From sequence record MN850585.1: DNA of 64,000 nt, one strand, 5' to 3'. Below are positions 30,578-31,005 of this stretch, piece by piece. The DNA comes from Escherichia phage skuden. Made by a program: the position numbers and the translations under genes. The number at the start of each line of letters is the position of its first letter. Positions within the stretch are counted from its first letter, which is position 1. The notes under the pieces were generated by a model. It had not been told where the DNA came from. It was given only the letters and a program-made list of their open reading frames with translations, and ran no database searches.

Positions 30578-31005
30578 ATTAAATTATCTTTGTAGATAAG
30601 CTACCCAGACTTGCTTAAGGTCTGTAGCGATGTGCCTTTTTGGGTTTAAATCTAGAATTTACCCTTTCACCCTTTGTGGTCGCATACTCACAGGTAAGCT
30701 TAATAACTTATCTACAAAGATAATTACCAGACCGTTGTTTATCATCTTAAGTGCTACCATTACACCAACTCGACATCTGCCGAGTGAAGGAATCGAACCT
30801 TCTCCTTTTCTTTACCGAGAAATAGATTGTTTAAGTTTTGCTGTAAACGGTCTTCTGTAAATTTGTTGAGCCAGACCAAGTTTTAAATTTTTCAAAATTA
30901 AATTGGCTTGAAATTTTAAGTAACTTGCTGTATTTGGTCTTCTGCTCCTTTAAAGGATACTCGTAAGAACTCTTTAAGGGAGGGGCTAAACAGCCCTCTC
31001 AAAAT

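What the first reader, a model, noticed from the sequence alone, without database searches (positions are those of the whole stretch)
30583..30728. 17-bp perfect inverted repeat bracketing a roughly 100-nt tRNA-free segment
TTATCTTTGTAGATAAG (about 30586-30602) and its exact reverse complement CTTATCTACAAAGATAA (about 30708-30724) flank about 105 nt that lack any tRNA. A perfect 17-bp inverted repeat in AT-rich DNA is unlikely by chance and would form a long stem enclosing a structured RNA or a protein-binding palindrome.
Basis: seen in the sequence. Interest (0 to 1): 0.4.

Follow-up and report, generated by a model that had tools for sequence, protein, structure and literature searches.

The report
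Long-stem RNA in phage tRNA operon
The inverted repeat is the closing stem of a conserved, unannotated ~144-nt structured RNA in Felix O1-like phages; it lies in the tRNA operon 1.1 kb downstream of a Ro60-like anti-defence gene and next to a tRNA-mimicking RNA, so it is a concrete candidate for the Y-RNA-type partner that has only been guessed at for this protein.

Summary
A perfect 19-nt inverted repeat (30582-30600 / 30707-30725) is the only one of its kind in the 64-kb window, and no shuffle reproduced it. The window is a Felixounavirus (Felix O1/wV8-like) tRNA array transcribed on the minus strand. On that strand the repeat extends to a 24-bp stem, including three G·U pairs, that closes about 96 nt of smaller hairpins. 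The element has two sequence types (A in 189 phage records, B in 60). Recognisable homologues occur in four more distant lineages. All are 144-166 nt, closed by a 22-24-bp stem of diverged sequence, and end 0-9 nt before tRNA-Lys(UUU). All 473 aligned pair cells form pairs, and five pairs show double-sided compensatory changes. It has no Rfam match and no RNA annotation in any record. It directly follows a permuted tRNA-like (YrlA-style) module. It also lies 1.1 kb downstream, on the same strand, of a DUF2828 protein whose predicted fold matches Ro60; this is Bas63 gp130, a reported counter to the Ppl defence. Best reading: a stable RNA processed from the tRNA precursor that acts as the long-stem Y-RNA-like partner of the phage Ro60. 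Structured RNA is well supported; Ro60 binding is inferred from context only.

The parts
30582..30725 (-). The finding: a ~144-nt structured RNA element (type A), made of a closing stem plus four internal hairpins
   Evidence: Fold. The covariance model built from relatives scores it 155 bits on the minus strand and 52 bits on the plus strand. Conservation and covariation.
30702..30725 (-). 5' arm of the closing stem (AAUUAUCUUUGUAGAUAAGUUAUU)
   Evidence: 24 bp, 3 of them G·U, no unpaired nucleotides.
30582..30605 (-). 3' arm of the closing stem (GGUAGCUUAUCUACAAAGAUAAUU); it ends 4 nt before tRNA-Lys(UUU) position +1
30667..30697 (-). Internal hairpin H1, with loop AGUAUGCGA conserved in type A and L215 (type B has GAGUGCCG)
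   Evidence: Fold; sequences. The short stem changes UGUG/CACA to GGGG/CCCC in L215 (read directly from the sequences).
30642..30664 (-). Internal hairpin H2, containing AUUCUAGAUU, which is invariant in all 15 type A and B sequences
   Evidence: helix 2, 100% paired.
30626..30636 (-). Small internal hairpin H3 (GGCACAUCGCU), weakly supported
   Evidence: Present in the MFE fold only; it varies among type A copies.
30606..30624 (-). 3'-proximal hairpin H4 (CAGAC-CUUAAGCAA-GUCUG), directly contiguous with the 3' arm of the closing stem. Its stem covaries, and the loop ends in GCAA in every lineage, followed by G
   Evidence: GC<->AU compensation. One search shows the stem as CAGUCC/GACUG, AAGUC/GACUU, CUGUUC/GAACGG and GAGAC/GUCUC in the distant lineages.
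30502..30577 (-). tRNA-Lys(UUU), the invariant 3' neighbour of the element
   Evidence: adjacency of 0-9 nt in six lineages.
30724..30860 (-). Module c: a permuted tRNA-like (YrlA-style) RNA. It has a closing helix AGACCGUU/AACGGUCU, UACAGCAA, a variable hairpin, a T-arm, a loop-closed 7-bp acceptor stem and a D-arm, and it abuts the finding
   Evidence: Unconstrained MFE fold; custom scan; not an ARAGORN tRNA. The acceptor stem covaries in Mordin and SUSP2.
30870..30945 (-). Module b: a stem-closed RNA carrying the CAGAAGACC-NNN-UACAGCAA ... GGUCUGG signature
31263..31345 (-). Signature module in the Met-Asn spacer
31423..31513 (-). Signature module in the Glu-Met spacer
31841..33256 (-). Ro60-like protein gene (DUF2828 + DUF7788/vWA, 471 aa), orthologue of Bas63 gp130
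   Evidence: Pfam. AlphaFold model with pLDDT 86.5. The top 11 Foldseek PDB hits are all Ro60/TROVE. The MIDAS-type residues D279, S281 and S283 are invariant. PhageMaP preprint.
31702..31822 (-). Two sigma-70-like promoters between the Ro60-like gene and tRNA-Pro; they are the likely start of the transcript that contains the element
   Evidence: Consensus scan: TTGACA-17-TAATAT and TTGACA-18-TAAAGT. These are consensus matches only.

Best explanation
The inverted repeat is the closing stem of a conserved ~144-nt non-coding RNA of Felix O1-like phages. Proposed mechanism, with each step marked as shown or inferred. (1) Inferred: it is transcribed on the minus strand as part of the polycistronic precursor that starts at the promoters just downstream of the Ro60-like gene. 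That precursor carries tRNAs, four stem-closed 'ACAGCAA-signature' RNAs (one of them a tRNA mimic) and this element. (2) Shown by comparative analysis: the RNA folds so that its 5' and 3' ends pair in a 22-24-bp stem that closes a branched core with conserved hairpin loops. (3) Inferred: RNase P cleavage at the 5' end of tRNA-Lys(UUU) leaves the element with a 0-9-nt 3' tail. Host RNase III and/or RNase E cutting in or next to the two-turn stem separates it from the upstream tRNA mimic, releasing a discrete RNA protected from exonucleases. (4) Inferred from genomic context only: the released RNA serves as the long-stem member of a Y-RNA-like set that partners the phage Ro60-like protein (Bas63 gp130). 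This parallels the YrlA (tRNA-like) plus YrlB (long hairpin) pairs that are processed from one precursor at bacterial Ro60 loci.
For: Structure and strand: 32 modelled pairs are 100% paired over 473 cells, against 28-46% when the partners are slid. Five pairs have double-sided changes, there is one matched indel of a whole base pair, and 0 of 500 shuffles reach the observed covariation score. G·U pairs make the stem complete only on the minus-strand RNA, and the transcribed strand folds more stably than its complement in all 8 representatives. Depth of conservation: a covariance model built only from types A and B finds the element directly 5' of tRNA-Lys(UUU) in four lineages whose Ro-like proteins are 53-63% identical. 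The scores are 68.8, 27.3, 20.0 and 17.1 bits, always higher on the transcribed strand. These copies keep 22-24-bp stems although arm identity falls to 42-70%. The interior keeps the invariant AUUCUAGAUU, the AGUAUGCG-type loop and a ...GCAAG loop on a covarying stem. Transcription unit: there is no promoter or terminator inside the element, and promoter-like sites lie at 31822-31794 and 31731-31702. Ro60 context: the 471-aa ORF 1.1 kb upstream on the same strand has a Ro60 fold. About 250 phage records have a close orthologue of it, and 249 have the element. The adjacent module has the V-T-AS-D layout of YrlA. Chen et al. 2014 (PMC4201824) report that Ro60 loci have at least two Y RNAs from one precursor, one tRNA-like and one a long hairpin. 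Bas63 gp130 is Ro60-like, counters Ppl, and its authors only guessed at Y RNA partners. Bas63 itself carries this element at 96% identity (H86).
Against: No expression, processing or binding data exist for this RNA; the literature searches found none. The published Ro60-binding motifs (GNCGAAN0-1G, the CGAA bulge, GGUCCGA) are absent from it. Its 3' hairpin only resembles the ACAGCAA signature of the neighbouring modules and does not match it. Its most conserved neighbour is tRNA-Lys(UUU) rather than the tRNA mimic, which has moved in L216. The covariance model finds nothing near very distant Ro-like genes. The covariation in the A/B alignment rests on few independent events. The near one-to-one co-occurrence with the Ro-like gene may simply reflect shared ancestry within one phage subfamily.
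Confidence: 0.45

Rival explanations
1. A purely cis-acting processing or insulator element. The two-turn stem is an RNase III site and/or a 3'-end protective hairpin that separates the upstream non-tRNA RNAs from tRNA-Lys(UUU) and governs maturation of that tRNA. The enclosed RNA has no function of its own in trans.
For: Stem length is held at 22-24 bp although its sequence diverges. The element is invariably 0-9 nt from tRNA-Lys(UUU) in six lineages, even where the tRNA mimic has moved. Two other long hairpins with related arms abut tRNA-Leu(UAG) and tRNA-Arg(UCU), each after a long non-tRNA spacer.
Against: A stem-only role does not explain the conserved interior: the invariant AUUCUAGAUU, the conserved loops on covarying stems and the constant ~100-nt core size. 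RNase P alone can already define the tRNA 5' end. This reading is not exclusive of the best explanation.
Confidence: 0.3
2. A DNA-level palindrome: a cruciform, a protein-binding site or an origin-type element.
For: A perfect 19-bp inverted repeat in AT-rich DNA. The plus strand also folds well (dG -44.8).
Against: The stem extends through G·U pairs that are A·C mismatches on the other strand. Type B and the distant lineages contain 1-4 G·U pairs. Model scores are higher on the transcribed strand even for sequences that were not used to build the model. The internal hairpins also covary.
Confidence: 0.04
3. A remnant or cassette of a mobile element (MITE-like terminal inverted repeats, or the debris of a homing-endonuclease insertion).
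For: Types A and B are swapped as a unit within otherwise 95-97% identical flanks. HNH endonuclease genes are inserted nearby in Felix O1, garuso and VpaE1.
Against: There is one copy per genome. The position is fixed across six lineages. The arms change by compensatory substitution rather than being conserved as sequence. There are no target-site duplications and no internal ORF.
Confidence: 0.05
4. A small protein-coding gene, since some GenBank records annotate a 'hypothetical protein' across it.
For: Short ORFs overlap it: 30659-30760 (-) of 33 aa and 30630-30860 (+) of 76 aa. Several records carry such annotations.
Against: The 33-aa ORF starts inside the D-arm of the tRNA mimic. Type A variants differ by 1-2-nt indels within these ORFs, and type B replaces the sequence altogether. 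The pattern of conservation follows base pairing, not codons.
Confidence: 0.02

Closest known systems
Bacterial and phage Y RNAs that accompany Ro60, especially the non-tRNA-like long-hairpin members (S. Typhimurium YrlB, M. smegmatis YrlB, D. radiodurans Yrn2) and phiLo Yrl1/Yrl2
   Same: It is encoded within 4 kb of a Ro60-family gene and on the same strand. Its 5' and 3' ends pair in a long stem closing an internal module. It sits beside a tRNA-like Y RNA and is probably cut from the same precursor. The size class is similar (Chen et al. 2014; phiLo paper).
   Different: It has none of the GNCGAAN0-1G, CGAA or GGUCCGA motifs. The stem is nearly perfect rather than bulged. The core is a four-hairpin junction rather than a small pyrimidine-rich loop. 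It is embedded in a tRNA array and abuts tRNA-Lys(UUU). The associated protein belongs to the divergent DUF2828 branch. Binding has not been tested.
YrlA (Rfam RF02553), the tRNA-mimicking Y RNA
   Same: This applies to the neighbouring module c (30724-30860), not to the finding itself. Module c has the V-T-AS-D order, a canonical T-loop and D-loop, a 7-bp loop-closed acceptor stem as in M. smegmatis YrlA, and a closing stem.
   Different: Rfam's YrlA model gives no hit in the window even at E<=10, although it does give a sub-threshold hit on a mycobacteriophage YrlA. The GNCGAAN0-1G motif is absent. Module c instead carries a helix + UACAGCAA ... helix + GG signature.
Bacteriophage T4 RNAC and RNAD (the species 1 and 2 RNAs)
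   Same: They are small RNAs transcribed from a virulent phage's tRNA region, detected by Northern blot, with biological roles still unknown (PMC3014915; PMC9697503).
   Different: No sequence or Rfam relationship was detected. I am not aware that T4 encodes a Ro60-like protein. The comparison is one of genomic situation only.
RNase III processing stalks, such as the stems flanking 16S and 23S rRNA and the phage T7 early-mRNA sites (from established knowledge)
   Same: Flanking sequences pair into a double-stranded stem of about two helical turns that encloses a structured RNA inside a polycistronic precursor.
   Different: Cleavage has not been shown here, and the enclosed RNA is only ~96 nt, with conserved loops of its own.

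Membership tests
Y RNA (Ro60-associated ncRNA) | Encoded near a Ro60 orthologue, within about 4 kb and on the same strand | tested here: met
   The element at 30582-30725 (-) lies 1.1 kb downstream of ORF 31841-33256 (-), whose model matches Ro60 structures. The gene and the element co-occur in about 250 records.
Y RNA (Ro60-associated ncRNA) | The 5' and 3' ends pair into a long stem that closes a large internal loop or module; size about 80-130 nt | tested here: met
   A 24-bp closing stem around a 96-nt core. The total length of 144 nt is slightly above the usual range.
Y RNA (Ro60-associated ncRNA) | A conserved Ro60-binding motif (GNCGAAN0-1G in bacteria, the GGUCCGA bulged helix in metazoa, the CGAA bulge in phiLo) | tested here: not met
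   A regex search of the element, module c, the whole gap and the homologues found none; the only hit was a lone CGAA in L218.
Y RNA (Ro60-associated ncRNA) | Physically bound by the Ro60 protein | not testable with these tools
   This needs gp130 pull-down or EMSA.
YrlA (Rfam RF02553) | Matches the YrlA covariance model | tested here: not met
   No YrlA hit on 30560-31020 at E<=10 or on 26000-33000 at E<=1. As a positive control, a mycobacteriophage locus gives 27.3 bits.
YrlA (Rfam RF02553) | A tRNA-like domain with the order V, T-arm, loop-closed acceptor stem, D-arm | tested here: not met
   Not met by the finding itself, which has no T- or D-arm. It is met by the adjacent module c.
tRNA | A cloverleaf recognised by ARAGORN or the Rfam tRNA model | tested here: not met
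RNase III substrate | Roughly 20 bp or more of near-continuous double-stranded RNA | tested here: met
   22-24 bp in all lineages. This is a structural prerequisite only.
RNase III substrate | Cleaved by RNase III in vivo or in vitro | not testable with these tools
   This needs end mapping in rnc+ and rnc- hosts.
MITE / mobile element with terminal inverted repeats | Multiple dispersed copies and target-site duplications | tested here: not met
   A single copy in the window and in each related locus. The position is fixed.

The most novel reading that the evidence does not exclude
Felix O1-like phages, and by extension many phages with DUF2828-type Ro60 proteins, may encode a previously undescribed multi-RNA Y-RNA system interleaved with their tRNA genes. 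It would comprise several stem-closed RNAs carrying a new recognition signature (helix + NACAGCAA ... helix + RG, shared with mycobacteriophage Ro loci), one of which is a tRNA mimic. It would also include this long-stem RNA, which is tied to tRNA-Lys(UUU). Together with the Ro60-like protein these RNAs would form the RNP that counters host defence (Ppl), for example by redirecting host exoribonucleases or shielding phage tRNAs.
Probability: 0.3. Interest if true: 0.75.

Novelty: new variant of a known kind. Interest (0 to 1): 0.62.

Why it matters
Ro60 and its Y RNAs are a conserved but poorly understood RNA-surveillance system. A 2024 preprint reported that the Ro60-like protein of a Felix O1-like phage (Bas63 gp130) counters the Ppl defence, and it could only guess that 'some tRNA genes are possibly Y RNAs'. 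This work gives exact coordinates for candidate partner RNAs in a classic, easily manipulated phage group. The candidates are the long-stem element, an adjacent tRNA mimic and three smaller signature modules. None is annotated in about 250 genomes or represented in Rfam. That makes the question directly testable by pull-down, Northern blot and deletion. It also shows that the gaps in phage tRNA arrays can hold structured RNAs rather than junk, and it offers a candidate recognition motif for the DUF2828 branch of Ro60 proteins.

Tried and rejected
1. Rfam scans in E-value mode, both wide and narrow, gave no family for the element.
2. My first IMG/VR pattern scan used a T-arm 16-mer and was too generic. 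It returned mostly unrelated phage tRNA loci, which I later used only as an imperfect control.
3. ARAGORN's 131-nt 'tRNA-Thr(GGT)' annotated in phage REP5 across module c is rejected. Its 5' acceptor strand pairs at only 5 of 7 positions, whereas the downstream strand pairs at 7 of 7, giving the permuted layout.
4. The idea that CAGAAGACC-NNN-TACAGCAA is a general phage promoter is rejected. The extended motif occurs only four times, all in this tRNA array, and the promoter scan is no better than shuffles.
5. The published Ro60-binding motifs were searched for and not found.
6. The covariance model R1 found no homologues near Ro-like genes of <=47% identity, so the family cannot be claimed beyond Felix O1-like phages and their 53-63% relatives.
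7. I did not attempt a formal six-lineage pair count, because bulges shift the register and reverse-strand hits would contaminate a model-made alignment. I used per-lineage stems and model hits instead.
8. Equating the element's 3' hairpin loop (YUWWGCAA) with the NACAGCAA signature was considered and is kept only as a resemblance.
9. Literature searches for Felix O1 or Felixounavirus small RNAs and transcriptomes found nothing relevant.

Full report
**Observation.** The 17-mer TTATCTTTGTAGATAAG lies at 30584-30600 and its exact reverse complement at 30707-30723. The perfect repeat is really 19 nt (30582-30600 / 30707-30725). The repeat finder extends it to 22-nt arms at 95% complementarity. 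It is the only perfect inverted repeat of >=14 nt with a gap <=200 nt in the 64-kb window, and 60 dinucleotide shuffles gave none of >=17 nt. ARAGORN and Rfam find no tRNA or known RNA family in the enclosed segment.

**Where it is.** The window is a Felixounavirus. 296 phage records match the region, including Felix O1, and phage wV8 has an identical Ro-like protein. The element sits in a 25-gene tRNA array on the minus strand, in the 428-nt gap between tRNA-Asp (31006-31083) and tRNA-Lys(UUU) (30502-30577). No promoter- or terminator-like site lies inside it. Sigma-70-like promoters lie at 31822-31794 and 31731-31702, ahead of the first tRNA. It is therefore most simply part of the polycistronic tRNA transcript; this is an inference.

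**Anatomy.**
- On the minus-strand RNA the repeat extends to a 24-bp stem with three G·U pairs.
- The stem closes four hairpins, and the fold has dG -48.3 kcal/mol with z = -5.9. The same fold appears when the whole 428-nt gap is folded.
- The 3'-most hairpin (CAGAC-CUUAAGCAA-GUCUG) runs directly into the 3' arm of the closing stem.
- The stem ends 4 nt before tRNA-Lys position +1.

**Comparative evidence that it is an RNA structure.**
- The element exists as two sequence types. Type A is in 189 records and type B in 60.
- Type B occurs in Suspvirus, in Mooglevirus and in some Felixounavirus genomes whose flanks are otherwise 95-97% identical. It has the same length and ends as type A but a largely different interior.
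- In an alignment of 15 distinct sequences, all 32 modelled pairs are paired in all 473 cells, against 28-46% when partners are slid by 1-3 columns.
- Five pairs show changes on both sides (UA<->CG twice, GC<->CG, UG<->GC, and GC<->AU in the 3' hairpin). One whole base pair is deleted on both arms in type B. No shuffle out of 500 reaches the observed covariation score.
- The closing stem pairs 22-23 of 22-23 positions on the transcribed strand and only 18-20 on the complement, because of G·U pairs.
- The caveat is that the A/B split supplies few independent events, so I fetched more distant syntenic relatives through the neighbouring protein. These are L215 (63% identity), L216 (57%), L217 = Yersinia phage vB_YenM_P778 (54%) and L218 (53%).
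- In every one, directly 5' of tRNA-Lys(UUU), there is a 144-166-nt element closed by a stem of 22-24 bp. In L216 the stem is longer and interrupted. Arm identity to the window's arms is as low as 42-70%.
- Each copy also has a 3'-proximal hairpin whose stem covaries (CAGUCC/GACUG, AAGUC/GACUU, CUGUUC/GAACGG, GAGAC/GUCUC) and whose loop ends in GCAAG.
- A covariance model built only from types A and B finds these four at 68.8, 27.3, 20.0 and 17.1 bits, always better on the transcribed strand.
- The transcribed strand folds more stably than its complement in all eight representatives.
- Conserved interior features are the invariant AUUCUAGAUU (ACUAGU in L215, AACGUU in L217 and L218) and an AGUAUGCG-type loop.
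- I take a functional, minus-strand RNA structure as well established, at about 0.9.

**Surroundings.** The rest of the gap and two further spacers hold four stem-closed modules that share 5' CAGAAGACC-NNN-UACAGCAA and 3' NNN-GGUCUGG.
- The NNN pairs covary between copies. The extended motif occurs nowhere else in the 64 kb.
- One module (30724-30860), which abuts the finding, folds without constraints into a variable hairpin, a canonical T-arm, a 7-bp acceptor stem closed by a 4-nt loop, and a D-arm. This is the V-T-AS-D layout that defines YrlA-type bacterial Y RNAs (PMC4201824).
- ARAGORN does not call it as a tRNA, and its acceptor stem covaries in Mordin and SUSP2.
- 1.1 kb upstream on the same strand is a 471-aa ORF (DUF2828 + DUF7788). 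Its AlphaFold model (pLDDT 86.5, pTM 0.87) has as its top 11 PDB matches only Ro60/TROVE proteins over the full length. These include Xenopus Ro60, D. radiodurans Rsr and Thermus phage phiLo Ro60.
- Its homologues occur in 709 phage records, including mycobacteriophage proteins annotated as Ro-like.
- The PhageMaP preprint reports that the Bas63 orthologue gp130 is Ro60-like and counters the Ppl defence. It merely speculates that some annotated tRNAs may be Y RNAs. Bas63 carries the present element at 96% identity.

**A wider signature (side result).**
- In Mycobacterium phage DuncansLeg the spacer after the Ro-like gene has three stem-closed modules of the form helix + N-ACAGCAA ... helix + AG. 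The middle one is the YrlA, which gives an Rfam RF02553 hit of 27.3 bits, below the gathering threshold.
- The same signature gives 37 hits in 29 of 80 Ro-like loci. Of these, 35 are on the gene's strand, and many start about 20-40 nt after the end of the gene. A block-shuffled control gives 6.6 hits.
- The published Ro60 motifs are absent from the window's RNAs.
- The finding's 3' hairpin loop (YUWWGCAA) resembles this signature but does not match it.

**Interpretation.**
- Chen et al. note that every characterised Ro60 locus has at least two Y RNAs cut from one precursor, one tRNA-like and one a long hairpin. The adjacent pair here, tRNA mimic plus long-stem RNA, fits that pattern.
- My best explanation (0.45) is a stable RNA released from the tRNA precursor. 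RNase P would cut at tRNA-Lys, and RNase III and/or RNase E would cut at or near the two-turn stem. The released RNA would act as a Y-RNA-type partner of the phage Ro60-like protein.
- The main rival (0.30) is a purely cis-acting processing or insulating stem tied to tRNA-Lys(UUU). The points in its favour are the invariant adjacency to that tRNA, the constant stem length, and two related hairpins abutting tRNA-Leu(UAG) and tRNA-Arg(UCU). The conserved interior argues against it.
- A DNA palindrome, a mobile-element remnant and a small ORF are disfavoured.

**Comparison and novelty.**
- The element works like a Y RNA in context and gross architecture. It fails the motif test and binding is untested, so I do not file it as a member of that family.
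- It is not YrlA, not a tRNA, and not in Rfam.
- It recalls T4's RNAC and RNAD, which are small RNAs from the tRNA region with unknown roles.
- I rate it a new variant of a known kind. It is unannotated in about 250 genomes, and it makes the question of gp130's RNA partners directly testable.

Noticed in passing
window 30724-30860 (-): An unannotated permuted tRNA-like (YrlA-style) RNA: closing helix, UACAGCAA, variable hairpin, T-arm GAAGGUUCGAUUCCUUC, a 7-bp acceptor stem closed by AGAU, and D-arm GUGUAAUGGUAGCAC. One relative (REP5) mis-annotates it as a 131-nt tRNA-Thr. The Rfam YrlA model does not hit it.
   Followed up: partly
window 31423-31513, 31263-31345, 30870-30945, 30724-30860 (all -); L219:5463-5725; many of L135-L218: A recurring 'ACAGCAA signature': helix + 1-3 nt + ACAGCAA + insert + helix + RG. 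It occurs 4 times in the window's tRNA array, 3 times after a mycobacteriophage Ro-like gene, and in 29 of 80 diverse phage loci encoding the DUF2828 Ro60-like protein. The hits are nearly always on the gene's strand and often start within tens of nt of the end of the gene. It is a candidate recognition motif for this Ro60 branch, and I did not find it described in the papers read.
   Followed up: partly
window 31841-33256 (-): The DUF2828 + DUF7788 protein has a confidently predicted Ro60 (TROVE ring + vWA) fold, with the MIDAS-type residues D279, S281 and S283 invariant. It is the orthologue of Bas63 gp130, a reported counter to the Ppl defence. Most records call it 'hypothetical' or 'RNA-binding protein'.
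   Followed up: yes
window 29437-29526 (-) and about 30100-30140 (-): Two further long hairpins whose arms resemble those of the finding (AUCUUUuUAGAgAA... / ...AAAGAU, then UUAAU). They lie immediately 5' of tRNA-Leu(UAG) and tRNA-Arg(UCU). L215's pre-Leu hairpin even shares UCUUUGUAGAU with the finding's arms, and model R1 hits it at 26 bits.
   Followed up: partly
window about 29794-29876 (-): A tRNA-like segment in the Ser-Arg spacer. It has the 7-bp acceptor pairing AUGGGAC/GUCCCAU followed by GCCA, and a T-arm-like GGGGUUCAACUCCUCC. ARAGORN and Rfam do not call it; it may be a degenerate or unusual tRNA.
   Followed up: no
L004 and L005 (garuso, Felix O1) against window 30421-30497: In Felix O1, FO1a and garuso an HNH endonuclease gene occupies the place of tRNA-Met between tRNA-Ile and tRNA-Lys, directly downstream of the element. 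The tRNA array is a hotspot for homing-endonuclease insertion.
   Followed up: no
L027, L073, L123, L128, L141, L145, L149, L158, L185, L201, L208, L209: T-arm, short-loop 7-bp hairpin and D-arm modules that ARAGORN does not call as tRNAs. They occur in diverse uncultivated phage contigs, several next to DUF2828 genes (L185 has two, starting ~60 nt downstream of the end of the protein match), which suggests that tRNA-mimic Y RNAs are widespread in phages.
   Followed up: partly
window 30096-30285 (-): A weak partial Rfam tmRNA hit (17.3 bits, E 7e-4) in the Arg-Ile spacer, and a strong sigma-70-like promoter at 30327-30299 (-). The tmRNA hit is probably spurious and was not examined.
   Followed up: no
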